Below are positions 18,566 to 63,142 of a stretch of DNA of 64,000 nucleotides, in pieces. Origin of the DNA: Escherichia coli (GTDB taxonomy: Bacteria > Pseudomonadota > Gammaproteobacteria > Enterobacterales > Enterobacteriaceae); the NCBI RefSeq assembly GCF_030013595.1, contig NZ_CP122768.1; one strand, given 5' to 3'. The notes beneath the pieces were generated by a model. That model did no database searches, was not told the origin of the DNA, and saw only the letters and a program-made list of their open reading frames with translations. Position 1 is the stretch's first letter. Each line of letters starts with the position of its first letter. Both the position numbers and the translations under genes were made by a program.

Positions 18566-20277
18566 TGAGCGAAAAACATCCAGGGCCTTTAGTGGTCGAA
18601 GGAAAACTGACAGACGCCGAGCGCATGAAGCTTGAAAGCAACTACCTGCGCGGCACCATTGCGGAAGATTTAAACGACGGTCTGACCGGCGGCTTTAAGG
18701 GCGACAACTTCCTGCTGATCCGCTTCCACGGCATGTATCAGCAGGATGACCGCGACATCCGCGCCGAACGTGCTGAACAGAAGCTGGAGCCACGTCATGC
18801 AATGCTGTTGCGCTGTCGTCTGCCGGGTGGGGTGATTACCACCAAACAGTGGCAGGCGATCGATAAATTTGCCGGTGAAAACACCATCTATGGCAGCATT
18901 CGCCTGACCAACCGCCAGACGTTTCAGTTCCACGGCATTCTGAAAAAGAACGTCAAACCGGTGCACCAGATGCTGCACTCGGTCGGTCTTGATGCGCTGG
19001 CGACTGCTAACGACATGAACCGTAACGTACTCTGCACCTCGAACCCTTACGAGTCGCAGCTACACGCGGAAGCGTATGAATGGGCGAAGAAAATCTCTGA
19101 ACATCTGCTGCCGCGTACCCGCGCGTATGCGGAGATCTGGCTCGATCAGGAAAAAGTCGCCACCACCGATGAAGAACCGATCCTCGGTCAGACTTATTTG
19201 CCGCGTAAATTCAAAACCACGGTAGTGATCCCGCCGCAGAACGATATCGATCTGCATGCCAACGACATGAACTTCGTGGCAATCGCCGAAAACGGCAAGC
19301 TGGTGGGCTTTAACCTGTTGGTGGGCGGTGGGCTTTCTATCGAACACGGCAACAAGAAAACCTACGCCCGCACGGCGAGTGAGTTTGGCTATCTGCCGCT
19401 GGAGCATACGCTGGCGGTGGCAGAAGCCGTCGTGACGACTCAGCGCGACTGGGGTAACCGTACCGATCGTAAAAATGCCAAAACCAAATACACGCTGGAG
19501 CGCGTGGGGGTTGAGACGTTTAAAGCGGAAGTGGAGCGTCGCGCGGGGATCAAATTTGAACCGATCCGTCCATATGAGTTCACCGGACGCGGCGATCGTA
19601 TTGGCTGGGTTAAAGGCATTGATGATAACTGGCACCTGACGCTGTTTATCGAAAATGGTCGCATCCTTGATTATCCTGGGCGTCCGCTGAAAACCGGCCT
19701 GCTGGAGATCGCGAAGATCCACAAAGGCGATTTCCGCATTACGGCGAACCAGAATCTGATCATCGCCGGTGTGCCGGAAAGCGAGAAAGCGAAGATCGAG
19801 AAGATCGCCAAAGAGAGCGGGTTAATGAATGCCGTCACGCCGCAGCGTGAAAACTCAATGGCCTGCGTGTCATTCCCGACTTGCCCGCTGGCGATGGCGG
19901 AAGCGGAGCGTTTCCTGCCGTCTTTTATCGACAACATCGATAATTTAATGGCGAAACATGGTGTCAGCGATGAGCATATCGTGATGCGTGTAACAGGCTG
20001 CCCGAACGGTTGTGGTCGCGCGATGTTGGCGGAAGTGGGCCTGGTGGGTAAAGCGCCGGGTCGCTACAACCTGCATCTTGGCGGCAACCGCATTGGGACA
20101 CGTATCCCACGGATGTATAAAGAAAACATCACCGAGCCGGAAATCCTGGCGTCGCTTGATGAACTGATAGGGCGCTGGGCGAAAGAGCGCGAAGCGGGTG
20201 AAGGCTTCGGCGACTTTACGGTGCGTGCGGGCATCATTCGCCCGGTGCTCGATCCGGCGCGCGATTTGTGGGATTAA
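18565..20277 (+). CDS. cysI: Sulfite reductase hemoprotein beta subunit
   Basis: 570-aa [25 protein letters not shown]..., siroheme/4Fe-4S Cys cluster CPNGC. Confidence 0.97.
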
Positions 20278-20297
20278 CCATCAGCCCGGTCTTGTAG

Positions 20298-20329
20298 GCC
20301 TGATAAGACGCGTGAGCGTCGCATCAGGC
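20298..20329. repeat. REP element in cysI-cysH spacer
   Basis: gcctgataagacgcgtgagcgtcgcatcaggc. Confidence 0.65.
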
Positions 20330-20350
20330 AAGGCAAACTGTGAGGAACTT

Positions 20351-21085
20351 ATGTCCAAACTCGATCTAAACGCCCTGAACGAACTGCCGAAGGTAGATCG
20401 CATTCTGGCGCTGGCAGAAACTAACGCCGAACTGGAAAAACTGGATGCTGAAGGCCGCGTTGCCTGGGCGCTGGATAATCTGCCCGGTGAATATGTACTT
20501 TCTTCCAGTTTCGGCATTCAGGCGGCGGTGAGCCTGCATCTGGTGAATCAGATTCACCCGGATATCCCGGTGATCCTGACCGATACGGGTTATCTGTTCC
20601 CGGAAACCTACCGCTTTATTGACGAGTTAACGGACAAACTCAAGCTCAACCTGAAAGTGTACCGCGCTACCGAAAGCGCCGCCTGGCAGGAAGCGCGCTA
20701 CGGCAAACTGTGGGAGCAGGGCGTTGAAGGCATTGAAAAGTACAATGACATCAACAAAGTCGAACCGATGAACCGGGCGCTGAAAGAACTGAATGCGCAA
20801 ACCTGGTTTGCTGGCCTGCGCCGTGAACAATCCGGCAGCCGCGCCAATTTACCGGTGCTGGCAATTCAGCGTGGCGTATTTAAAGTGCTGCCGATTATCG
20901 ACTGGGATAACCGAACTATTTATCAGTACCTGCAAAAACATGGCCTGAAATATCACCCATTATGGGATGAAGGATATTTATCGGTCGGTGATACCCATAC
21001 AACCCGTAAATGGGAACCCGGCATGGCGGAAGAAGAAACGCGTTTCTTTGGCTTAAAAAGAGAATGTGGGTTACACGAAGGGTAA
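20351..21085 (+). CDS. cysH: Phosphoadenosine phosphosulfate (PAPS) reductase
   Basis: 244-aa [26 protein letters not shown]...; ATG 20351 preceded by GAGG. Confidence 0.95.
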
Positions 21086-21103
21086 ATATTGCCGGATAAA
21101 TTA

Positions 21104-21140
21104 AACGCCTCTGTCAGAAATGATGGGGGCGTTTTTATTT
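21104..21140 (+). terminator. Probable cysH terminator (aaacgcc...ggcgttttt atttt)
   Basis: GC stem with T-run 20-55 nt after cysH stop; loop is long so call is tentative. Confidence 0.4.
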
Positions 21141-21251
21141 TGCGAGCAGCATTCCTGATTTTAAACGTGAACGCCGCTGGAAGAATTATCAGGTATAGAA
21201 TGGCGTTGGGTGCTTGAGGCTGTCTGGCGTTAAGCATTCGCGAGGTTCCAG

Positions 21252-21356
21252 ATGGACAAAAGCCCCAGGCGATATTTCTATCAACCTGAGGCCAGCGTTC
21301 GAACCCAAACAATTCGAATGTTAGTCTCTTCTTTGCAGGGAGGCAAGGCATGCTGA
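21252..21356 (+). CDS. Mok-like leader ORF overlapping the hok start (candidate translational-coupling frame)
   Basis: 34-codon [37 protein letters not shown] ending in TGA that overlaps the hok ATG; architecture typical of hok/sok loci. Confidence 0.3.
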
Positions 21357-21502
21357 CAAAATATGCCCTTGTGGCAATCATAGTGCTGTGTTTTACAGTA
21401 CTGGGATTCACGCTGATGGTAGGCGACTCGTTGTGTGAGTTGAGTATCAGAGAACGTGGTATGGAGTTTAAGGCAGTTCTCGCTTACGAATCGAAGAAGT
21501 AG
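21350..21502 (+). CDS. Hok/Gef-family type I toxin (50 aa)
   Basis: [50 protein letters not shown]: single TM helix, conserved SLCE and C-terminal AxxAYE motif of Hok family; SD gcagggagg upstream; resembles the HokE-type sequence as I recall it. Confidence 0.75.
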
Positions 21503-21513
21503 CCACCACGCGG

Positions 21514-21523
21514 GGGTAAAACC
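21514..21523. repeat. Left copy of 10-bp target-site duplication (gggtaaaacc) of IS186
   Basis: Identical 10-mer at 22862..22871 immediately outside the other IS end. Confidence 0.8.
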
Positions 21524-22861
21524 CATAAGCGCTAACTTAAGGGTTGAACCATCTGAAGAATGCGACGCCTCGGTGCCTCGTTAAGACGATGCCTCGCGTT
21601 CTTCAATTGCGTTTTGTAGGCTGTCAGGGATACTGTCCCACGAATGGCCACCTGTAAGCTCCAGATGACCATTTTTGTTATTCTCCACAACGAGTTAGTT
21701 CTTCTTTTCGGATCCGGCACTTCTGGGGGGAAATCCAGCGATGGCTGGATTATGTCGTCAATTAAAAATGCGGCGAGTAGATTAGCAAATATCCACGCTT
21801 TCGCGAGTTCAGGTTCCTTTGCACGCAAAGCATCCAGGTGCAGCAAACTTTTGAGCCGCTTAAAAGCCAGTTCAATTTGCCATCGCAGACGGTAACAATC
21901 AGCCACTTGCTCTGCTGAATATTCATCTTCCGGTAATGATGTTAGCAATAGCACATGGCCCGCTGCTTCCAGCGTTTCCGCCTGAACTACTCGTCCTTTT
22001 CGACGATTCTCGCTGAGCAGTCGGGTTTTACTGATTAATGCTTTTTCGGGAGGAAGTGATACGGCAATGAGACGTGCCGGAAAGGGAGCTCCGGCTTTTT
22101 TATTACCTGAATTGCCTATCATTACAGTGGTTTCACCGTTCTTACCGCAATCCAGCCCGCGCAGAAAACCCATCATGTCAAAGCGCATTCCTTCTGCAGT
22201 TAACCAGCGCAATCCTCGCCAGTGAACCCGGACGATATAATCAGCTTCTCCAAAAGCAAGTGAGCGGATACATTCGGGACGCGAACCGAATCCCCGGTCA
22301 GCAATGCGTATCTCGTCTGCCGTTTGCGCAAATCGGTCCAGCCGTTCAGCGTCTCTGCTGTCGGTTAGCTCAAAATCAGTGAACTGACAGGTATGAGGAT
22401 CATATCCCATATGTAGTCGCCATTCAGCGCTGCCGCCCCCGGGCGCACTGATTGCTGTTCCATCGACAAGACGCAATCTCTTTCCGCTTGTACAACCCGT
22501 AACTGCGGCGCGTACAGCAAGTGTTTGTGCGGCAAGTATGCCAAACCAGTCGGCGGCATTCCGCAGCCGCTTCAGGAGAGCCACGTCAGATAATGTTGCA
22601 ACGTCATGGAGCTGAGCCCATGCAGTGACTTCACGTAATGACATCCCCCCGGGGCCGTAAGCCAGCCCCAGACGTAGCAGAGTTGCAGCATCACGAATTT
22701 CGCGGCGGCGGGTTAGAGCCCCGGCATTACGTGCCGAAGTATCCAGTTCTTCGGGCTTACCAATATGGGCCAGAATTGCTGACCAGTTATCGTGAGAGTA
22801 ATTCATCGGCACGTTAAATCATATCAGGCGTAATACCACAACCCTTAAGTTAGCGCTTATG
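21524..22861 (-). mobile_element. IS186 (IS4 family), complete 1338-bp copy with 23-bp perfect terminal inverted repeats
   Basis: IRL cataagcgctaacttaagggttg at 21524..21546 and its exact reverse complement at 22839..22861; single transposase ORF inside; length 1338 bp matches IS186. Confidence 0.92.
21532..22812 (-). CDS. insL: IS186 transposase (longest ORF; the conventional annotation may start at the internal Met MSLREV at complement 22644)
   Basis: ORF MPMNYSHDNWSAILAHIGKPEELDTSARNAG... recognised as IS186/IS421 transposase. Confidence 0.9.
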   Translation of the reverse strand: MPMNYSHDNWSAILAHIGKPEELDTSARNAGALTRRREIRDAATLLRLGLAYGPGGMSLREVTAWAQLHDVATLSDVALLKRLRNAADWFGILAAQTLAVRAAVTGCTSGKRLRLVDGTAISAPGGGSAEWRLHMGYDPHTCQFTDFELTDSRDAERLDRFAQTADEIRIADRGFGSRPECIRSLAFGEADYIVRVHWRGLRWLTAEGMRFDMMGFLRGLDCGKNGETTVMIGNSGNKKAGAPFPARLIAVSLPPEKALISKTRLLSENRRKGRVVQAETLEAAGHVLLLTSLPEDEYSAEQVADCYRLRWQIELAFKRLKSLLHLDALRAKEPELAKAWIFANLLAAFLIDDIIQPSLDFPPEVPDPKRRTNSLWRITKMVIWSLQVAIRGTVSLTAYKTQLKNARHRLNEAPRRRILQMVQPLS

Positions 22862-22871
22862 GGGTAAAACC
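22862..22871. repeat. Right copy of 10-bp target-site duplication (gggtaaaacc) of IS186
   Basis: Matches 21514..21523. Confidence 0.8.
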
Positions 22872-22977
22872 CCGCGTATTGAATTGTTAAAGTTTGGCCT
22901 CCTGCACCCCTTTTTTATACTCTGTTTCTGGTGGCATTGATTTCCTGCAGGCAAGGGAGTAATCATTTTCAAACCCA

Positions 22978-24015
22978 TCAAGACGCCTTCGCCAGCTCCT
23001 TCACCAGCGGTAGCATTATCCGCATAACATCACGGCAGCGACGTTCTATTCTTCCTGGAAGTGCCTTATCAATATGTTGTTGATTATCCAGTCTTACGTC
23101 ATGCCAGCTATTTCCCGCAGGGAATGCGGCTGTTTTTGCGCGTTGCTGATAACCATCTTTATTCCCAAGATTCCAGTTTGTTGCTTCTACCGAAAGTACG
23201 GCAATACCGGCTTTGTCGAAAACTTCGGCGTCATTACAACAGCCAGTACCCTTCGGATAATTTTTATTCAAACCCGGATTGGTCGTTGCGGCAATTCCAT
23301 GACTACGCGCAATTGCCAGCGCCCTGTCGCGCGTTAATTTCCTTACTGCTTCAGGGGTTTTTACACCGCTGTTGAAATACAATTTATCGCCAACAATTAA
23401 GTTATCGAGATTAATCACCAGCAGCGTATTTTTCTTTTCGGTGTCACTCATCCGCTTGAGTAAATTCTCAGCGCCTAATTTTCCTTCCTCTTCGCCGCTG
23501 GTCGCCACAAATCGAATACCATACTCGGTAGGCGTATTTTTCAGGCGTTCTGCCAGTTCCAGCATGACACCTAAACCTGCGGCGTTATCATCTATTCCTT
23601 GTAACGTCAGTCCGCCGAGATTGGCATCGGCGTCAGCATCGCTCAGCGGAGCGTAAGTATCCAGATGCGCCATAATGATGATCTGCTGCGGCGCTTTGCC
23701 TTCATGAGCGGCAATCACCGTACTTCCCGTCACGTTATGCCAGCTCTTGCGATTATCGCGGGCGGTATAAATATACCGACTATTAAATGTCCGAATATCA
23801 CTGCGATAACCCATTTGCTGAAACTGCTGGCGAATATAATCGGCAGATAACATTTCTGCAGGAGTTCCGGTCATGCGTCCCGGAAAGAAAGTAGCAATAT
23901 GTCGTGCCTGAGTATTAGCAAAATCGCCAGGTTTAGATGACGAGGCGTGTACGGGGAGAATAAAGCATACGCCGAGCGCCAGGGCAGCGGTACGGTGGCG
24001 CAATGCGGAAAACAT
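22978..24015 (-). CDS. iap: Alkaline phosphatase isozyme conversion aminopeptidase
   Basis: 345-aa ORF with signal peptide MFSALRHRTAALALGVCFILPVHA and M28-peptidase-like motifs; position beside cysD. Confidence 0.88.
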   Translation of the reverse strand: MFSALRHRTAALALGVCFILPVHASSSKPGDFANTQARHIATFFPGRMTGTPAEMLSADYIRQQFQQMGYRSDIRTFNSRYIYTARDNRKSWHNVTGSTVIAAHEGKAPQQIIIMAHLDTYAPLSDADADANLGGLTLQGIDDNAAGLGVMLELAERLKNTPTEYGIRFVATSGEEEGKLGAENLLKRMSDTEKKNTLLVINLDNLIVGDKLYFNSGVKTPEAVRKLTRDRALAIARSHGIAATTNPGLNKNYPKGTGCCNDAEVFDKAGIAVLSVEATNWNLGNKDGYQQRAKTAAFPAGNSWHDVRLDNQQHIDKALPGRIERRCRDVMRIMLPLVKELAKAS

Positions 24016-34052: not shown

Positions 34053-34089
34053 AAAGGCCAGTCTCAAGCGAGGCTGGCCTTTTTCTTTT
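34053..34089 (+). terminator. rpoS rho-independent terminator
   Basis: aggccag...ctggcct stem followed by ttttctttt. Confidence 0.65.
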
Positions 34090-34157
34090 GGTTGGGAAGT
34101 CGGTGTGTTTTGTCGCCTGGATAAGACTCGTCAGCGTCCTACCCGGCAATCAGCATC

Positions 34158-34565
34158 CTATTTGCTCATCATCTTGCGCACCAACTGCATAAACAGCTCC
34201 TTCTCTTCTGCACTCAAACGCCCCAAAAATTCCTCATCCACACTGTCACCAATGGGGATCGCCGCAGCAAGTACCTTTTCTCCTTCGGCAGTCAGCCAGA
34301 CAAAGCGACGCCGCTTGTCAGCGGCGTCATGTTCACGTCTGACTAAGCCACGATTTTCCATTCTTGCCAACATTTCTGCCAGCGTTGCTTTGGTGCTGAC
34401 TGCTGCTTCTATCAGTGCCACCTGTTCGATACCAGGCTTATCAGCAATGGCGCGCATCACCGCGTACTGTGGTTTGGTGAGGTCAGGTAACTCGTGCTGC
34501 CAGCGAGCCGTGTGCTGCTGAAAAAGCTGTCGTAACTGATGGAACGCTTTATTTCGTAACGCCAT
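34158..34565 (-). CDS. MarR/SlyA-family transcriptional regulator
   Basis: 135-aa from complement ATG 34565 (MALRNKAFHQLRQLF...), winged-helix region; divergent from decarboxylase operon. Confidence 0.75.
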   Translation of the reverse strand: MALRNKAFHQLRQLFQQHTARWQHELPDLTKPQYAVMRAIADKPGIEQVALIEAAVSTKATLAEMLARMENRGLVRREHDAADKRRRFVWLTAEGEKVLAAAIPIGDSVDEEFLGRLSAEEKELFMQLVRKMMSK

Positions 34566-34711
34566 GTAAACTCCGGGCAAACTATCTGCCGCTATCATAG
34601 CGGTTTTTCAGTGACGAAGAAGATGTTGTTACTTTTCAGTGCTTGCCGCGATGAAAACAGAGGCGTATTTTAATAATGACGTTCGTATACGAACAATTAA
34701 GAGAATAAACA

Positions 34712-35305
34712 ATGAGACTGATCGTCGGGATGACAGGGGCTACCGGTGCGCCTCTTGGGGTGGCATTACTGCAAGCGCTGCGGGAGATGCCGAATGTCGA
34801 GACTCATCTGGTGATGTCGAAGTGGGCGAAAACCACTATTGAACTGGAAACGCCTTACAGCGCTCGCGATGTTGCCGCCCTCGCAGACTTCAACCATAAC
34901 CCGGCGGATCAGGCGGCGACTATCTCTTCCGGCTCCTTTCGTACCGACGGCATGATCGTTATTCCATGCAGTATGAAAACGCTCGCCGGTATCCGCGCTG
35001 GTTACGCCGATGGTCTCGTGGGGCGCGCGGCGGACGTCGTGCTCAAAGAAGGCCGCAAACTGGTGCTGGTGCCGCGTGAAATGCCGCTTAGCACAATCCA
35101 TCTCGAAAATATGCTCGCACTTTCGCGCATGGGCGTGGCGATGGTGCCGCCGATGCCTGCCTTTTATAACCATCCCGAAACGGTAGATGACATTGTCCAC
35201 CACGTGGTAGCCCGCGTGCTGGATCAATTTGGCCTCGAACATCCTCACGCCAGGCGCTGGCAAGGATTGCCGCAGGCCCGGAATTTTTCTCAGGAGAATG
35301 AATAA
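34712..35305 (+). CDS. ecdB: UbiX-like flavin prenyltransferase (phenolic acid decarboxylase subunit B, Pad1-like)
   Basis: 197-aa MRLIVGMTGATGAPLGVALLQAL..., UbiX/Pad1 flavoprotein signature. Confidence 0.85.
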   Translation: MRLIVGMTGATGAPLGVALLQALREMPNVETHLVMSKWAKTTIELETPYSARDVAALADFNHNPADQAATISSGSFRTDGMIVIPCSMKTLAGIRAGYADGLVGRAADVVLKEGRKLVLVPREMPLSTIHLENMLALSRMGVAMVPPMPAFYNHPETVDDIVHHVVARVLDQFGLEHPHARRWQGLPQARNFSQENE

Positions 35306-36732
35306 TGGCATTTGATGATTTACGCAGCTTTTTACAGGCGCTTGATGACCACGGCCAGTTACTGAAAATCAGCGAAGAGGTGAACGCGGAACCGGATCTG
35401 GCAGCCGCTGCCAACGCCACCGGACGTATCGGCGATGGTGCACCGGCGCTGTGGTTTGACAATATTCGCGGCTTTATCGATGCCCGCGTGGCAATGAATA
35501 CCATCGGTTCCTGGCAGAACCACGCGATTTCCCTCGGCCTGCCGCCAAACACCCCGGTTAAAAAGCAGATTGATGAGTTTATCCGCCGCTGGGATAACTT
35601 CCCCATTACCCCGGAGCGCCGCGCCAATCCAGCCTGGGCGCAGAACACCGTCGATGGCGACGAGATCAACCTGTTCGATATTCTGCCGCTGTTTCGTTTA
35701 AACGACGGTGATGGCGGTTTCTATCTCGATAAAGCGTGCGTGGTTTCCCGCGATCCGCTCGACCCGGATAACTTCGGCAAGCAGAACGTCGGCATCTACC
35801 GCATGGAAGTGAAGGGCAAACGTAAGCTCGGCCTGCAACCGGTGCCGATGCACGATATCGCTCTGCATCTGCATAAAGCGGAAGAACGCGGTGAAGATCT
35901 GCCGATTGCCATCACCCTGGGTAACGATCCGATCATCACCCTGATGGGCGCCACGCCGCTGAAATACGATCAGTCTGAGTACGAAATGGCGGGCGCGCTG
36001 CGCGAAAGCCCGTACCCGATCGCCACCGCCCCGCTGACCGGTTTTGATGTGCCGTGGGGCTCGGAAGTGATCCTCGAAGGGGTTATCGAAAGTCGTAAAC
36101 GTGAGATTGAAGGGCCGTTCGGTGAGTTTACCGGTCACTACTCCGGCGGGCGTAACATGACCGTGGTGCGTATCGATAAAGTCTCTTACCGTACCAAACC
36201 GATTTTCGAATCGCTCTATCTTGGTATGCCGTGGACCGAAATCGACTACCTGATGGGGCCTGCCACCTGCGTGCCGCTGTATCAGCAACTGAAAGCCGAG
36301 TTCCCGGAAGTGCAGGCGGTAAACGCCATGTACACCCACGGCCTGTTGGCGATTATCTCCACCAAAAAACGCTACGGCGGCTTTGCCCGCGCGGTGGGCC
36401 TGCGTGCAATGACCACGCCGCACGGTCTGGGCTACGTGAAGATGGTGATTATGGTCGATGAAGACGTTGATCCGTTCAACCTGCCGCAGGTGATGTGGGC
36501 GCTCTCCTCGAAAGTGAACCCGGCAGGCGACCTGGTGCAGTTGCCAAATATGTCCGTGCTGGAACTCGACCCTGGCTCAAGCCCGGCGGGGATCACCGAC
36601 AAGCTGATTATCGACGCCACCACGCCTGTCGCCCCGGACAACCGTGGTCACTACAGCCAGCCGGTGGTGGATTTACCGGAAACCAAAGCCTGGGCTGAAA
36701 AACTGACTGCTATGCTGGCCGCACGTAAATAA
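35305..36732 (+). CDS. ecdC: UbiD-family (de)carboxylase (phenolic acid decarboxylase subunit C)
   Basis: 475-aa ORF; TAATG overlap with upstream gene. Confidence 0.85.
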   Translation: MAFDDLRSFLQALDDHGQLLKISEEVNAEPDLAAAANATGRIGDGAPALWFDNIRGFIDARVAMNTIGSWQNHAISLGLPPNTPVKKQIDEFIRRWDNFPITPERRANPAWAQNTVDGDEINLFDILPLFRLNDGDGGFYLDKACVVSRDPLDPDNFGKQNVGIYRMEVKGKRKLGLQPVPMHDIALHLHKAEERGEDLPIAITLGNDPIITLMGATPLKYDQSEYEMAGALRESPYPIATAPLTGFDVPWGSEVILEGVIESRKREIEGPFGEFTGHYSGGRNMTVVRIDKVSYRTKPIFESLYLGMPWTEIDYLMGPATCVPLYQQLKAEFPEVQAVNAMYTHGLLAIISTKKRYGGFARAVGLRAMTTPHGLGYVKMVIMVDEDVDPFNLPQVMWALSSKVNPAGDLVQLPNMSVLELDPGSSPAGITDKLIIDATTPVAPDNRGHYSQPVVDLPETKAWAEKLTAMLAARK

Positions 36733-36742
36733 GGAGAACAAG

Positions 36743-36979
36743 ATGATTTGTCCACGTTGTGCCGATGAACAGATTGAAGTGATGGCGAAATCGCCGGTGA
36801 AAGATGTCTGGACGGTCTACCAGTGCCAGCATTGCCTTTATACCTGGCGCGATACCGAACCGCTACGCCGCACTAGCCGCGAACATTATCCCGAAGCGTT
36901 CCGCATGACGCAGAAAGATATTGATGACGCGCCGATGGTGCCGAGCATCCCGCCGCTGCTGGCGGAAGGTAAGCGCTAA
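36743..36979 (+). CDS. ecdD: Small Cys-rich subunit D of phenolic acid decarboxylase
   Basis: 78-aa MICPRCADEQIEVMAKSPVKDVWTVYQCQHCLYTW..., CxxC...CxxC; 10 bp after ecdC. Confidence 0.7.
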   Translation: MICPRCADEQIEVMAKSPVKDVWTVYQCQHCLYTWRDTEPLRRTSREHYPEAFRMTQKDIDDAPMVPSIPPLLAEGKR

Positions 36980-46677: not shown

Positions 46678-47022
46678 ATGTCCGGCAAGCGTATCTCTCG
46701 TGAAAAACTGACGATTAAAAAAATGATCGATCTTTATCAAGCGAAATGCCCGCAGGCGTCAGCGGAGCCGGAGCATTACGACGCGCTGTTTGCCTACGCG
46801 CAAAAGCGGCTGGATAAATGTGTGTTCGGCGAAGAGAAACCAGCCTGTAAGCAGTGTCCGGTGCACTGTTACCAGCCTGCAAAGCGTGAAGAGATGAAAC
46901 AGATTATGCGTTGGGCCGGGCCGAGAATGCTGTGGCGTCATCCGATCTTAACCGTGCGTCATCTCATCGATGACAAGCGTCCGGTGCCGGAGTTGCCAGA
47001 AAAATATCGTCCAAAGAAATAA
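46678..47022 (+). CDS. ygbA: Nitrous oxide-stimulated promoter family protein
   Basis: 114-aa ORF with CPQ...CKQCPVHCY Cys motifs; position next to mutS. Confidence 0.8.
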   Translation: MSGKRISREKLTIKKMIDLYQAKCPQASAEPEHYDALFAYAQKRLDKCVFGEEKPACKQCPVHCYQPAKREEMKQIMRWAGPRMLWRHPILTVRHLIDDKRPVPELPEKYRPKK

Positions 47023-47026
47023 ATCT

Positions 47027-47049
47027 GCCGGAGAGCCATACTCTCCGGC
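47027..47049. terminator. Hairpin between convergent ygbA and mop gene
   Basis: gccggagag-ccata-ctctccggc. Confidence 0.5.
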
Positions 47050-47060
47050 AAATAAGGCGT

Positions 47061-47489
47061 TTACGCTTTGGTGGCAATCAGGATGGCTGATGCTTTGATC
47101 AATGCAATAACGCGCGAGCCAGTGGTGAGTTTCATTTCATCCTGACTTTCATTTGTTACCACTGCCACAATTTCAAAACCCGCATCCGTTTTGATATGGA
47201 CAGTGGCGTTCACTGCGCCTTCGGTGATTGTCGACACGCTGCCAGCAAACTGGTTGCGAGCAGAGAATTTCAGTCCACAGTCTTCCGTTGCCAGCGTGAC
47301 CCACGGGGCTTTAATCAGGGCAATCGCTTCTTTCCCTTTTGCCAGACCCAGAGCCTGCTGGCTGCTGTGAGTCACAATTGCCACCAGCTTTGCACCACCT
47401 GCCAGCGTCAGTTCTACTTCATCATTCACAGCGCCCATTGCTACTGCGCTAACTGTTCCGGTTAATTGATTTCTTGCTGAAACTGCCAT
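47061..47489 (-). CDS. Molybdenum-pterin/molybdate-binding protein with two tandem Mop (TOBE) domains
   Basis: 142-aa MAVSARNQLTGTVSAV...IALIKAPWVTLATE and SARNQFAGSVSTI...IALIKASAILIATK internal duplication; AAGGAGG SD upstream of complement ATG 47489. Confidence 0.7.
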   Translation of the reverse strand: MAVSARNQLTGTVSAVAMGAVNDEVELTLAGGAKLVAIVTHSSQQALGLAKGKEAIALIKAPWVTLATEDCGLKFSARNQFAGSVSTITEGAVNATVHIKTDAGFEIVAVVTNESQDEMKLTTGSRVIALIKASAILIATKA

Positions 47490-47533
47490 ACTGCCTCCTT
47501 TCATTGAATGTTGATCGAGTATAACCACATCTG

Positions 47534-61377: not shown

Positions 61378-61401
61378 TTTTTCAGTAAGGAATTCAGGGG
61401 A

Positions 61402-62175
61402 TTGAACATCAGAACAGGGATGTGCGCTTTTTTATTGAGCTTAGTGCTGCCTGCACAGGCCACCAGCTTTACCGAATATCTGCCGATGAGTGACAGCGAA
61501 TACGCGCAAAAGCGGGCGCTGAAACCTCTCCTGACCATGCCTTATGATGCCGAGCAAAACTGGCATTTTAGAAAAGTCGGCGTTGCTGGCGTGACGCTTG
61601 AAAAGATGCCAAATGATGATAGTGAATGGCAATTGAACGGTAAAGATCGCGCCGGTAAATCCTGGTCTGTGCCTGTGGGGGTGCTGCAAAATATGGCGGG
61701 TAATGCGCAACTTTACCGTGCCGATCTTGATCGTAACGGCATTCAGGATCTAGTTATCTGGCGGGGTATTTCAGGAAATGGTCTGGCACCTAACGCGTTT
61801 TTGATTCTGATGACCTTTAATCAGCAAGGTCGCCCGTGTGTTTTTCAGTCCGATGGTTTTTATACCGCAAGTGAAACTGGCATTGATGATTTGCTGGATT
61901 TACAAAGGAATGGCCACACGCAATTGCTGGATATGCAGTTTGATTCCGGTTACTGGATAACCAGTCTGTATCAGGTAAAAGACGCCAAATGGCAGCGTGT
62001 TCACGGCTGGTTTGGCAAGTTAAGCTATCCCGCGCTCACGCGTTTTACTTATACCCCCAACCGTAAACTCGTCCTCAAACCCATCGCCGGGCGCGACCCG
62101 CAATCGGAAGATCTGGCGCTGACGCAGCGTTGCTTGATAAAGGGGGATGTGCTTTATGGGGTGAATCAGAACTGA
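61402..62175 (+). CDS. Uncharacterised exported protein (predicted signal peptide, no recognisable domain); start may be TTG 61402 or ATG 61420
   Basis: 257-codon ORF with E. coli-like codon usage; N-terminus MNIRTGMCAFLLSLVLPAQA|TSF looks like a Sec signal peptide; begins 25 bp after hycI stop with no intervening hairpin. Confidence 0.55.
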   Translation: MNIRTGMCAFLLSLVLPAQATSFTEYLPMSDSEYAQKRALKPLLTMPYDAEQNWHFRKVGVAGVTLEKMPNDDSEWQLNGKDRAGKSWSVPVGVLQNMAGNAQLYRADLDRNGIQDLVIWRGISGNGLAPNAFLILMTFNQQGRPCVFQSDGFYTASETGIDDLLDLQRNGHTQLLDMQFDSGYWITSLYQVKDAKWQRVHGWFGKLSYPALTRFTYTPNRKLVLKPIAGRDPQSEDLALTQRCLIKGDVLYGVNQN

Positions 62176-62237
62176 CTTTTTGCAGAGTGGCTATGTGGAT
62201 TTTGGGGGTAATTATATAGCGTACAAGTGTTTACATA

Positions 62238-62266
62238 TTGTGAACTTTGATTTGATGAGCTATAGT
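62238..62266 (+). promoter_or_regulatory. Candidate sigma70 promoter for the higB-like gene (TTGTGA-N17-TATAGT)
   Basis: -35 at 62238..62243, 17-bp spacer, -10 at 62261..62266, about 70 nt upstream of the toxin ATG. Confidence 0.35.
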
Positions 62267-62336
62267 TTCCGAACACATAAGGATAGAACTCGCAGATGTG
62301 GCTGTTTACTTACTATAAGGAAGTTAAAACTTAAAA

Positions 62337-62648
62337 ATGCACATCATTTCTAAAGCGCCATTTGAAGAGTGTGCGCGCAAATATCCTAACGACGCTCTGG
62401 CTCTACACTCATTGTATCGGGTTATTAAGGAAACGGATTTTTCTACACCAGAAGAAATGCGAACGGCGTTTCCCAACCTCGACAATTTTAGATATCGCAA
62501 CAAATGGTACGTTCTGGATGTCGGCGGGAACAATCTTAGGGTTATTGCCTACATAAACTTTGTTAATAAGCGGTTCTTTGTGAAGCACATAACGAATCAC
62601 GCAGAGTATGACAAACTGACACGTTACTACAGAGAGAACAAAGAATGA
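62337..62648 (+). CDS. HigB-like toxin (RelE/ParE superfamily mRNA interferase)
   Basis: 103-aa MHIISKAPFEECARKYPNDALALHSLYRVIKETDFSTPEEMRTAFPNLDNFRYRNKWYVLDVGGNNLRVIAYINFVNKRFFVKHITNHAEYDKL...; shares the FP.LDNF...VGGN.LRV...H.EYD pattern of E. coli HigB as I recall it. Confidence 0.75.
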   Translation: MHIISKAPFEECARKYPNDALALHSLYRVIKETDFSTPEEMRTAFPNLDNFRYRNKWYVLDVGGNNLRVIAYINFVNKRFFVKHITNHAEYDKLTRYYRENKE

Positions 62649-63064
62649 CTGCTAATGCTGCACGCGCTGTTAAAGCAACAAGAGAACTGGTCAATGCAGT
62701 CCCCTTTCTGGGAGGTAGTGACTCAGAAGATGATTATCGTGAAGCACTGGAACTGGTCGAATATTTGATTGAAGAAGATGACACCAATCCACTTATCGAC
62801 TTTCTGGCGAGCCGCATTGCAGAGTATGAAAGCAACAACGAAAAGTTTGCAGAGTTCGACAAAGCCGTTGCTGCAATGCCGGTTGGCGTGGCGTTACTTC
62901 GTACGCTGATTGATCAACATAATCTGACCTACGCGGATTTGAAGAACGAAATCGGCTCTAAATCCCTGGTCAGTCAGATTTTGTCTGGGCAACGATCCCT
63001 GACGATATCCCACATTAAGGCACTTTCAGCCCGATTTGGTGTTAAGCCGGAATGGTTTCTTTGA
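62645..63064 (+). CDS. HigA-like antitoxin (XRE-family HTH at C-terminus)
   Basis: 139-aa ORF overlapping toxin stop by 4 bp; C-terminal HTH LTYADLKNEIGSKSLVSQILSGQRSLTISHIKALSARFGV; N-terminal APFLGG...ALELVEYL like HigA. Confidence 0.75.
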   Translation: MTANAARAVKATRELVNAVPFLGGSDSEDDYREALELVEYLIEEDDTNPLIDFLASRIAEYESNNEKFAEFDKAVAAMPVGVALLRTLIDQHNLTYADLKNEIGSKSLVSQILSGQRSLTISHIKALSARFGVKPEWFL

Positions 63065-63090
63065 TTTTGACTGATGCCAAACCCAAGATT

Positions 63091-63120
63091 GCCCGATGCG
63101 CAACGCTTATCGGGCTTTCT
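63091..63120. terminator. Hairpin between convergent higA-like gene and ascB (gcccgat...atcgggc tttctt)
   Basis: 7-bp GC-rich stem with 11-nt loop and T-rich tail. Confidence 0.4.
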
Positions 63121-63142
63121 TGGTTCGTGCGACGGTAGTTAC

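What the first reader, a model, noticed from the sequence alone, without database searches (positions are those of the whole stretch)
21086..22977. Type I-E cas operon and its array are absent; cysH-iap interval instead holds a Hok-family toxin locus plus IS186
In K-12 the roughly 9 kb between cysH and iap holds cas3, the Cascade genes, cas1, cas2 and the leader-proximal array. Here cysH ends at 21085 and iap ends at 22978, and the 1.9 kb between contains only a cysH terminator, a hok/mok-like locus and a complete IS186. No cas-like ORF is present anywhere in the window, so the CRISPR array at 4201..4717 is an orphan. A toxin-antitoxin locus occupying the exact site of the immune system is notable, as hok-type loci are usually thought of as plasmid-stabilisation or chromosomal relics.
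Basis: partly seen in the sequence, partly recalled or inferred. Interest (0 to 1): 0.75.

Follow-up and report, generated by a model that had tools for sequence, protein, structure and literature searches.

The report
Known cas-less E. coli allele plus IS186
This E. coli carries the common, already described version of the cysH–iap locus that lacks the CRISPR-Cas genes, and the small toxin gene there is a normal neighbour of those genes rather than a replacement, with a jumping element recently landed in its tail.

Summary
The anatomy is as described. It runs cysH, then a hokX/sokX toxin-antitoxin locus, then IS186, then iap, and the window holds no cas gene. The interpretation that a toxin locus occupies the site of the immune system is wrong.

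- **hokX is a resident neighbour of cas3.** It lies directly upstream of cas3 in 2263 of 5426 complete E. coli genomes.
- **The cas-less junction is common and published.** The array-less hokX–iap junction occurs in 1129 of 5426 genomes. It matches the 'arrangement B' described by Almendros et al. 2014.
- **The IS186 is a recent simple insertion.** It sits in a canonical GGGG(N6)CCCC target, the hairpin after the hok reading frame, with a 10-bp duplication. A genome 99.9% identical to the window has the empty site. IS186 therefore did not delete cas here.
- **Likely effect on hokX.** The insertion separates the hokX mRNA body from its predicted 3' fold-back partner and probably disables normal control. 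This is inferred, not shown.
- **How cas was lost.** Compared with close cas-positive relatives, the cas-less allele sits on a divergent block of at least 41 kb that begins inside cysH. This points to allele exchange rather than local deletion.

The only unusual point is the combination of the two events, seen in 1 of 5426 genomes. Verdict: ordinary and already known.

The parts
20351..21085 (+). cysH (PAPS reductase), 244 aa. A haplotype boundary lies in or just upstream of its 5' part (20026-20416).
   Evidence: ORF and sequence; annotated cysH in relatives. SNP density against cas-positive relatives jumps after 20416.
21103..21144 (+). cysH terminator-like hairpin with T-run
   Evidence: Consensus scan, 14-pair stem followed by TTATTTTG.
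21208..21365 (+). hokX mRNA leader / Sok target region (Rfam RF01794 'sok', full-length match). It starts with the tac-like GGTGCTTGAGGC at 21209-21220.
   Evidence: cmscan 112.4 bits against a gathering score of 59, E = 9.5e-25, model 1-157/157. The tac-like element is inferred from the fold.
21252..21310 (-). Position equivalent to the annotated K-12 small RNA SokX (antisense antitoxin)
   Evidence: K-12 ncRNA sokX b4701, mapped through a gap-free 98.6% alignment of window 21000-21352 with K-12.
21252..21356 (+). mok-like leader ORF (34 aa) overlapping the hokX start by 7 nt
   Evidence: ORF list. The function is inferred by analogy with hok/mok of plasmid R1. No family hit.
21350..21502 (+). 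hokX, Hok/Gef family toxin ORF, 50 aa, intact
   Evidence: Pfam PF01848 E = 3.5e-11, model 1-42/42. Its DNA is identical to that of RefSeq Hok/Gef family protein WP_000956460.1 in HCP5S3_I2.
21514..21523 (.). Left copy of the 10-bp target-site duplication GGGTAAAACC
   Evidence: Direct reading and script.
21524..22861 (-). IS186 (RefSeq name IS421), 1338 bp, with 23-bp perfect inverted ends at 21524-21546 and 22839-22861. The transposase is on the minus strand.
   Evidence: Ends and length. NCBIfam IS4 transposase 132.7 bits against a cutoff of 115. Identical, apart from one base, to the copies in BL21(DE3), 7CC, CUPS TF 6/1_01 and KL53.
21532..22806 (-). Transposase ORF, 424 aa instead of 370. 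A 1-nt deletion in a G-run at 21725-21730 (G6 instead of G7) replaces the last 9 residues with a 63-residue tail.
   Evidence: Alignment and translation of five IS186 copies. A homopolymer sequencing error cannot be excluded.
22862..22871 (.). Right copy of the target-site duplication GGGTAAAACC
22872..22916 (+). Displaced 3' end of the hokX transcript: the second half of the hairpin (CCGCG), the fbi-like GGCCTCCTGCACC at 22896-22908, and a T-run at 22911-22916
   Evidence: In the IS-excised 360-nt RNA, the minimum-energy fold pairs 21209-21221 with 22896-22908, z = -4.0. This stretch is shared with cas-positive alleles.
22917..22963 (.). 47-nt junction segment found only in cas-less alleles; origin unknown
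   Evidence: Absent from cas-E1 and cas-E2 alleles, with no alignment better than shuffled controls. Present in 1129 genomes and in Escherichia sp. E1V33.
22978..24015 (-). iap (alkaline phosphatase isozyme conversion aminopeptidase), 345 aa
   Evidence: ORF; annotation in relatives.
4201..4717 (+). CRISPR-II (ygcE-queE) array: nine type I-E repeats and eight spacers, one of them duplicated. It has no cas partner in the window.
   Evidence: Its position between queE and ygcE follows from relatives.

Best explanation
The interval is the common cas-less, array-less allele of the E. coli CRISPR-I locus. In this allele the resident type I toxin-antitoxin locus hokX/sokX, which in cas-E1 strains lies between cysH and cas3, abuts iap through a short 47-nt junction.

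In this lineage an IS186 then transposed into the GC-rich hairpin 11 nt after the hokX stop codon. That hairpin is a canonical IS186 target, GGGG(GTAAAA)CCCC. The insertion duplicated 10 bp.

IS186 did not remove the cas genes. The cas-less allele was there first. It sits on a block of at least 41 kb that diverges from the closest cas-positive relatives, starting inside cysH. So it was inherited or exchanged by homologous recombination as a whole allele.

The insertion moves the predicted 3' fold-back partner and T-run of the hokX mRNA 1348 nt away from the body of the transcript. By analogy with plasmid R1 hok and with the IS-carrying hok loci of K-12, this should abolish the stable, translationally inert full-length mRNA and so disable normal Hok control. 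This step is inferred.

The type I-E array 17 kb away persists as an orphan. It changes only by repeat-to-repeat recombination.
For: **Resident neighbour**
- hokX followed directly by cas3 is present in 2263 of 5426 complete genomes.
- It is present in the close relatives ETEC4077 and W13-16.

**Known allele**
- The hokX-to-iap junction is present at 80% coverage or more in 1129 of 5426 genomes, without IS186 in the three I inspected.
- Almendros 2014 describes deletion of the IG6-IG3 interval as arrangement B. It places an IS186 hot spot at the IG2-IG3 boundary and reports hok sok in all strains except cas-E2 strains.

**Simple recent insertion**
- The element has perfect 23-bp ends and a 10-bp duplication.
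- The IS-excised interval is 544/544 identical to HCP5S3_I2.
- HCP5S3_I2 is 99.93-99.97% identical to the window over more than 40 kb and has the empty site.
- The target fits GGGG(N6/N7)CCCC (PMC5009759).
- BL21 shows what an IS186-linked deletion looks like. Its right IS end abuts a CRISPR spacer and there is no duplication.

**Allele exchange**
- Against ETEC4077 and W13-16 there is at most 1 SNP per kb from 8 to 20.0 kb.
- From 20416 to the end of the window the density is mostly 5-40 SNPs per kb.

**RNA**
- The minimum-energy fold of the IS-excised 360-nt transcript closes its 5' end on the 3' element, with z = -4.0.
- The one variant in that 3' element (C to T in cas-E1 alleles) keeps the pair as G-U.

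**IS insertions near hok genes**
- hok/sok homologues are recurrent IS insertion hot spots (bioRxiv 10.1101/527788).
Against: - The functional effect on hokX is not shown. The 5'-3' closure appears in the minimum-energy structure but not in the centroid, and it has no compensatory double change behind it.
- Transcript ends are inferred, not mapped.
- Which lineage is the recombinant, the cas-less one or the cas-positive relatives, cannot be decided from these data.
- The 47-nt junction segment matches nothing in the cas-E1 or cas-E2 alleles I examined. The published 'simple deletion' origin of this allele is therefore not confirmed here.
- Precise excision of IS186 in HCP5S3_I2, rather than insertion in the window's lineage, is unlikely but not excluded.
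Confidence: 0.9

Rival explanations
1. One reading: a Hok-type toxin-antitoxin locus has taken the place of the type I-E system, for example as an addiction module that displaced or succeeded the immune locus.
For: In K-12 no hok ORF is annotated between cysH and cas3, only sokX. A comparison with K-12 alone therefore makes hok look new at the site.
Against: - hokX lies directly upstream of cas3 in 2263 of 5426 genomes and in close relatives of the window.
- K-12 homology ends at the hok start codon, so K-12 is the derived state.
- The published surveys say the same.
- hokX is also next to cysH in a separate Escherichia species.
Confidence: 0.02
2. IS186 caused the loss of cas and the array, through recombination between two IS186 copies or an adjacent deletion, as in E. 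coli B.
For: - IS186 sits at this same hairpin in at least 619 genomes.
- In BL21/REL606 the right end of that IS186 abuts a CRISPR spacer with no duplication.
- Almendros 2014 attributes that arrangement to IS-IS recombination.
Against: - In the window the 10-bp duplication is intact and both flanks are contiguous in the empty-site allele.
- The cas-less junction exists without IS186 in the three genomes I inspected, out of the 1129 that carry it.
- The nearest relative lacks the IS.
Confidence: 0.03
3. The junction is an assembly artefact, with a collapse or mis-join at a repeated IS186 that hides the cas operon.
For: IS186 is multicopy, and the copy here has a homopolymer-length difference typical of sequencing error.
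Against: - The same IS186-plus-junction arrangement is present in strain 7CC.
- The IS-free version is identical in a complete genome.
- A target duplication flanking the IS is not expected from a mis-join.
- The junction with iap lies 100 nt outside the IS.
Confidence: 0.01
4. The IS-free state of HCP5S3_I2 arose by precise excision, so the insertion is older than it looks and was ancestral to both strains.
For: Cannot be excluded from two genomes. IS186 at this hairpin has the same orientation in every context I examined.
Against: - Precise excision is far rarer than insertion: 1 excision against 758 insertions in mutation-accumulation lines.
- The site is a canonical hot-spot motif.
- 1128 of the 1129 genomes with this junction do not show the IS186 arrangement.
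Confidence: 0.04

Closest known systems
CRISPR-I locus 'arrangement B' of Almendros, Mojica, Diez-Villasenor et al. 2014 (mBio 5:e00767-13)
   Same: The order is cysH, conserved intergenic region, hok sok, then a short intergenic stretch and iap. There are no cas-E genes, no leader and no CRISPR2.1 array. It is widespread: 1129 of 5426 genomes here.
   Different: The window adds an IS186 at the hairpin that the paper calls the IG2-IG3 boundary. In the text I could read, the paper reports that IS186 site on cas-E1 backgrounds (arrangements D-F and, after deletion, G). The figures and tables were not available to me. Only 1 of 5426 complete genomes shares the combination.
E. coli B / BL21(DE3) cysH-iap interval (the IS186-linked cas deletion that Almendros 2014 describes, e.g. 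arrangement G; that BL21 belongs to G is my inference)
   Same: It has the same hokX, and the same IS186 at the same hairpin in the same orientation. It has no cas genes.
   Different: BL21 keeps a 273-bp remnant of the iap-proximal array. Its IS186 has no target duplication on the right, where it abuts a spacer. The window has no array remnant, has an intact duplication, and carries the 47-nt cas-less junction instead.
IS-interrupted chromosomal hok loci of E. coli K-12 (hokA, hokC, hokE; Pedersen and Gerdes 1999, from my own knowledge, paper not held)
   Same: An IS150 or IS186 sits just downstream of an intact hok reading frame. That paper regards those loci as inactivated because the 3' part of the mRNA is cut off.
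   Different: This is a different paralogue (hokX). Inactivation here is inferred from a predicted fold only.
hok/sok of plasmid R1 (type I toxin-antitoxin, post-segregational killing)
   Same: It has a Hok-family toxin ORF, an overlapping leader ORF, an antisense RNA against the leader, and a predicted 5'-3' fold-back of the full-length mRNA.
   Different: This locus is chromosomal. The Hok sequence is divergent: it falls below the NCBIfam HokA and Hok-family cutoffs. No killing or stabilisation has been shown for hokX in anything I could read.

Membership tests
Hok/Gef toxin family (Pfam PF01848) | Small (about 50 aa) protein matching the Hok/Gef profile over its whole length | tested here: met
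   PF01848 E = 3.5e-11, 43 bits, model 1-42/42. RefSeq annotates the identical gene as a Hok/Gef family protein.
Hok/Gef toxin family (Pfam PF01848) | Equivalence to a named paralogue (NCBIfam HokA equivalog or Hok subfamily cutoff) | tested here: not met
   HokA 57.7 bits against a cutoff of 89; Hok family 41 bits against a cutoff of 73. It is a Hok-family member but not HokA.
hok/sok-type type I toxin-antitoxin locus | Antisense small RNA overlapping the toxin mRNA leader | tested here: met
   Rfam RF01794, 112.4 bits against a gathering score of 59, at 21208-21365. The annotated K-12 SokX maps to 21252-21310 on the minus strand. Expression was not tested.
hok/sok-type type I toxin-antitoxin locus | Leader ORF (mok) overlapping the hok start for translational coupling | tested here: inconclusive
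   A 34-codon ORF at 21252-21356 overlaps the hokX ATG by 7 nt. There is no family match and no test of coupling.
hok/sok-type type I toxin-antitoxin locus | Full-length mRNA closed by pairing of its 5' end (tac) with its 3' end (fbi) | tested here: inconclusive
   Predicted in the minimum-energy fold of the IS-excised RNA (z = -4.0) but not in the centroid. There is one G-C to G-U change and no double change. In the window itself the two partners are 1.3 kb further apart.
IS186 (IS4 family) | Terminal 23-bp inverted repeats and a roughly 10-bp target duplication at a GGGG(N6/N7)CCCC site | tested here: met
   Perfect 23-bp ends; 10-bp GGGTAAAACC on both sides; target GGGG(GTAAAA)CCCC. The motif comes from PMC5009759.
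IS186 (IS4 family) | Intact 370-aa transposase | tested here: not met
   A 1-nt deletion in a G7 run gives a 424-aa product with an altered C-terminus. Four other copies are identical to each other and encode 370 aa. This may be a sequencing error.
Type I-E CRISPR-Cas system | cas3, Cascade genes, cas1 and cas2 adjacent to an array | tested here: not met
   No blastn or tblastx match to cas-E1 or cas-E2 genes anywhere in the 64 kb. The rest of the genome cannot be tested.
Type I-E CRISPR-Cas system | Array of 29-nt type I-E repeats with 32-nt spacers | tested here: met
   Nine repeats of GAGTTCCCCGCGCCAGCGGGGATAAACCG at 61-nt spacing, 4201-4717.
CRISPR-I arrangement B (Almendros 2014) | hok sok and the downstream intergenic stretch joined to the iap-proximal region, with no cas, leader or array | tested here: met
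   The IS-excised interval is identical to HCP5S3_I2 and about 94% identical to strain p11A (phylogroup not determined), both annotated cysH, Hok, iap. The paper's figure and table were not available, so the match to its letter code rests on the text alone.

The most novel reading that the evidence does not exclude
The cas-less hokX-iap allele may not be a deletion derivative of the cas-E1 arrangement, as proposed in 2014. It may instead be an old alternative allele, possibly the empty site that predates the CRISPR-Cas module. On this reading it is kept as a presence/absence polymorphism and passed between lineages by homologous recombination of long blocks.

The hints are these:
- Its 47-nt junction segment matches nothing in the cas-E1 or cas-E2 alleles examined.
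- The same arrangement, with the segment about 83% identical, occurs in a separate Escherichia species whose flanks are 92% identical.
- In this lineage the cas difference coincides with a recombination boundary inside cysH.
Probability: 0.15. Interest if true: 0.35.

Novelty: already known. Interest (0 to 1): 0.1.

Why it matters
It matters little beyond bookkeeping. The absence of type I-E cas genes between cysH and iap, the orphan arrays, the neighbouring hok sok locus and the IS186 hot spot next to it were all described for E. coli in 2010-2014.

This example adds three small things:
- a clean before-and-after pair, with two genomes 99.9% identical, one with and one without the IS, for a fresh IS186 hit in a hok terminator hairpin;
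- a case where loss of cas between close relatives maps to a recombination boundary rather than to a local deletion;
- a reminder that K-12 is the atypical strain at this locus, so comparisons with K-12 alone mislead.

Tried and rejected
- **Origin of the 47-48 nt junction segment (about 22916-22963).** I ran local alignment against the whole cas-E1 interval of ETEC4077, the cas-E2 interval of K-12 and the BL21 array remnant. Scores were no better than shuffled controls. My eye-guess that it is a degenerate terminal repeat is therefore not supported.
- **Exact-pattern scan of one genome per species.** The 21-specified-base pattern from that segment found only Escherichia sp. E1V33. More divergent copies would be missed.
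- **NCBIfam naming of Hok.** Scores were below the curated cutoffs. Pfam was used instead.
- **NCBIfam on the HigB-like pair.** It gave nothing. Pfam did.
- **Papers not held.** The supplementary tables of Almendros 2014 and the paper of SaiSree et al. 2001 on the IS186 target are not held. The target motif was taken from Lee et al. 2016 instead.
- **Search ranking.** The 18-kb similarity search ranked ETEC4077 first and did not show the true nearest genome. That genome turned up through the 139-nt junction query.
- **Extra spacers as new acquisitions in a cas-less strain.** I considered this for the two additional leader-proximal spacers. I rejected it because both occur side by side in 16 other genomes, including the cas-positive W13-16.
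- **cas genes elsewhere.** I could not check for cas genes elsewhere in the source genome or in HCP5S3_I2 (for example type I-F at clpA-infA).
Full report
**What is there**

cysH ends at 21085 and iap occupies 22978-24015 on the other strand. Between them, in order:
- a cysH terminator-like hairpin (21103-21134);
- a region that matches the Rfam sok family over its full length (21208-21365, 112 bits against a gathering score of 59);
- a 34-codon leader ORF (21252-21356);
- a 50-codon ORF (21350-21502) that matches the Pfam Hok/Gef profile end to end (E = 3.5e-11);
- an IS186 of 1338 bp (21524-22861) with perfect 23-bp inverted ends, flanked by a 10-bp direct duplication GGGTAAAACC;
- 116 more bases up to the iap stop codon.

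The annotated SokX RNA of K-12 maps to 21252-21310 on the minus strand.

I ran blastn and tblastx of the complete array-plus-cas intervals of K-12 (cas-E2 type) and ETEC4077 (cas-E1 type) against the whole window. They hit only the repeat array near 4.2-4.7 kb. The rest of the window is collinear with annotated genes of K-12 and of a near-identical genome, none of them cas genes.

**The toxin locus did not replace the immune system**

I took a 501-nt probe from ETEC4077 that spans the hok ORF, the intergenic region and the start of cas3. It is covered at 80% or more in 2263 of 5426 complete E. coli genomes. In those genomes the order is cysH, hokX, cas3, Cascade genes, cas1, cas2, array, iap.

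K-12 is the odd one out. Its similarity to the window runs from cysH to the hok start codon (21352) and then stops, which is why only sokX is annotated there.

This is in print. Almendros et al. 2014 state that the hok sok system is present in all strains except those with the K-12-type cas-E2 genes (PMC3903273). A 2025 survey found hok plus sokX next to cysH in 90% of urinary isolates (PMC12736100). A separate Escherichia species (sp. E1V33, about 92% identical) also has cysH, a 50-aa Hok differing at two residues, and iap.

**The cas-less junction is a common allele**

A 139-nt probe running from just after the duplication into iap is covered at 80% or more in 1129 of 5426 genomes. The three I opened are annotated cysH, Hok, iap, with nothing else between. 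This fits the arrangement that Almendros et al. call B. They derive it from the cas-E1 arrangement by deletion of everything between two conserved intergenic stretches.

One detail does not fit a clean deletion. The last 47 nt before the iap-proximal sequence (about 22917-22963) are shared by all cas-less alleles. They align to nothing in the cas-E1 or cas-E2 intervals better than shuffled sequence does. The same segment, with about eight differences, is in Escherichia sp. E1V33.

**IS186 arrived later and did not delete anything here**

After removing the IS and one copy of the duplication, the 544-nt cysH-iap interval is identical to that of strain HCP5S3_I2. That genome is 99.93-99.97% identical to the window over more than 40 kb on both sides. 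This is an empty-site and filled-site pair.

The target reads GGGG(GTAAAA)CCCC. That is the motif GGGG(N6/N7)CCCC found for IS186 in mutation-accumulation lines (PMC5009759). It is also the GC-rich IG2-IG3 boundary that Almendros et al. name as an IS186 site.

IS186 sits at this same hairpin in at least 619 genomes, on several backgrounds:
- next to a cas3-containing but partly deleted cas-E1 operon in KL53 (casB and cas6e are truncated and cas7 and cas5 are missing);
- next to a truncated operon in CUPS TF 6/1_01;
- next to an array remnant in E. coli B, C and ATCC 8739.

In BL21 the right end of the IS abuts a spacer and there is no duplication, which is the signature of an IS-linked deletion. 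In the window the duplication is intact.

A probe that requires both the IS end and the array-less junction finds only one other genome, strain 7CC. Its left flank is a different hokX haplotype, 96% identical. The two are therefore probably independent insertions.

**How cas was lost in this lineage**

The cas-positive porcine strains ETEC4077 and O139:H1 W13-16 are almost identical to the window from 8 kb to 20.0 kb, with 0-1 differences per kb. From position 20416, inside cysH, to the end of the window, the two haplotypes mostly differ at 5-40 sites per kb.

The cas-less allele therefore sits on a long divergent block of at least 41 kb whose left edge lies between 20026 and 20416. The presence/absence difference between these relatives reflects exchange of a whole allele by homologous recombination, in one lineage or the other. 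It does not reflect a local event.

**Likely consequence for hokX (inferred)**

I joined the two halves of the locus to give a 360-nt RNA running from GGUGCUUGAGGC (21209) to the T-run (22916). It folds well below shuffled controls (-127.8 kcal/mol, z = -4.0). In the minimum-energy structure the 5' end pairs with GGCCUCCUGCACC (22896-22908). This resembles the tac-fbi closure that keeps full-length hok mRNA of plasmid R1 stable and untranslated until 3' processing (my knowledge of that system).

The centroid structure lacks the closure. The only natural variant in it is a one-sided G-C to G-U change. The pairing is therefore plausible but not proven.

IS186 splits the hairpin and places the 3' element 1348 nt further away, behind an element transcribed in the opposite direction. 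The same kind of IS insertion just after the reading frame is what Pedersen and Gerdes (1999; from memory, paper not held) regarded as inactivating hokA, hokC and hokE in K-12. hok/sok genes have also been reported as recurrent IS hot spots (bioRxiv 10.1101/527788).

I therefore expect that hokX here no longer yields its normal stable mRNA and is functionally silenced or deregulated, although the toxin ORF is intact.

**The orphan array**

The array at 4201-4717 lies between queE and ygcE (CRISPR-II). It has nine type I-E repeats and eight spacers. Compared with HCP5S3_I2 it has two more leader-proximal spacers and a tandem duplicate of one spacer.

The two extra spacers are not new. They occur side by side in 16 other genomes, including the cas-positive W13-16, where one newer spacer precedes them. 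The differences between the two cas-less sisters are therefore a repeat-mediated deletion in one and a duplication in the other. Neither needs Cas proteins.

Whether cas genes exist elsewhere in the source genome cannot be tested from this window.

**Verdict**

The headline interpretation is not. Every component and its position have been described before: the cas-less allele, the resident hok sok neighbour, the IS186 hot spot and the orphan arrays. The combination of the array-less allele with IS186 is rare (1 of 5426 genomes), but it is just two known events on one chromosome. Interest is low.

Noticed in passing
window 21725-21730: The IS186 copy has G6 where four otherwise identical copies in other genomes have G7. 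The transposase reads 424 aa instead of 370, with a new 63-residue tail that runs into the inverted repeat. This is either a real inactivating frameshift or a homopolymer sequencing error.
   Followed up: partly
window 4384-4505: The CRISPR-II array contains a perfect tandem duplicate of one repeat-spacer unit (spacer GGCTTTACGCCCAAAAAGGATTGAATGCAGAT twice). The near-identical strain HCP5S3_I2 has it once. This points to repeat-mediated unequal recombination in a cas-less background.
   Followed up: partly
window 4230-4322: Two leader-proximal spacers are absent from the 99.9% identical sister genome. They are present side by side in 16 porcine ETEC / O139:H1 genomes, at least one of which (W13-16, the only one inspected) is cas-positive. 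This links the window to a pig-associated lineage and shows spacer loss by deletion in the sister.
   Followed up: yes
window 22917-22963; L014 about 4350-4405: A 47-nt segment is specific to cas-less alleles. It has no detectable source in cas-E1 or cas-E2 alleles. It is also present, at about 83% identity, between hokX and iap of Escherichia sp. E1V33.
   Followed up: partly
window 20026-20416 and 5000-8000: There are sharp changes in SNP density against the closest cas-positive relatives. The sequences are near-identical from 8 to 20 kb. They diverge from 20416 to the end of the window, and also in a patch at 5-8 kb beside the CRISPR-II array. These look like recombination tract boundaries.
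   Followed up: partly
window 34084-36978: A 2.9-kb segment absent from K-12 lies between rpoS and ygbN. It holds a MarR-family regulator and hydroxyarylic acid decarboxylase subunits B and C (VdcB 312.8 bits, VdcC 788.9 bits); relatives also annotate a small subunit D. This is the well-known polymorphic rpoS-mutS region.
   Followed up: partly
window 61399-63137: A 1.7-kb segment absent from K-12 lies between hycI and ascB. It holds a 257-aa protein with no NCBIfam match (Pfam not run), plus a HigB-family toxin (Pfam PF09907, E = 1.2e-22) with an overlapping helix-turn-helix partner. This is a second toxin-antitoxin pair in the window. ETEC4077 has the pair but apparently not the 257-aa gene.
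   Followed up: partly
window 47020-47532: About 0.5 kb between ygbA and fhlA does not align with K-12. Relatives annotate a TOBE-domain protein there.
   Followed up: no
L002 3463-3490 (BL21(DE3)): In BL21 the right end of the hokX-side IS186 abuts the sequence GGGGTTTTTCCCC inside a CRISPR spacer, itself an IS186-like target, and there is no duplication. This fits recombination between two IS186 copies, one in the hok hairpin and one in the array.
   Followed up: partly
L008 16702-16928 (strain KL53): KL53 has IS186 at the hok hairpin next to cas3 and casA. Its casB and cas6e are truncated and fused, so an internal Cascade deletion removed cas7 and cas5. This is another partly decayed state of the locus.
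   Followed up: no
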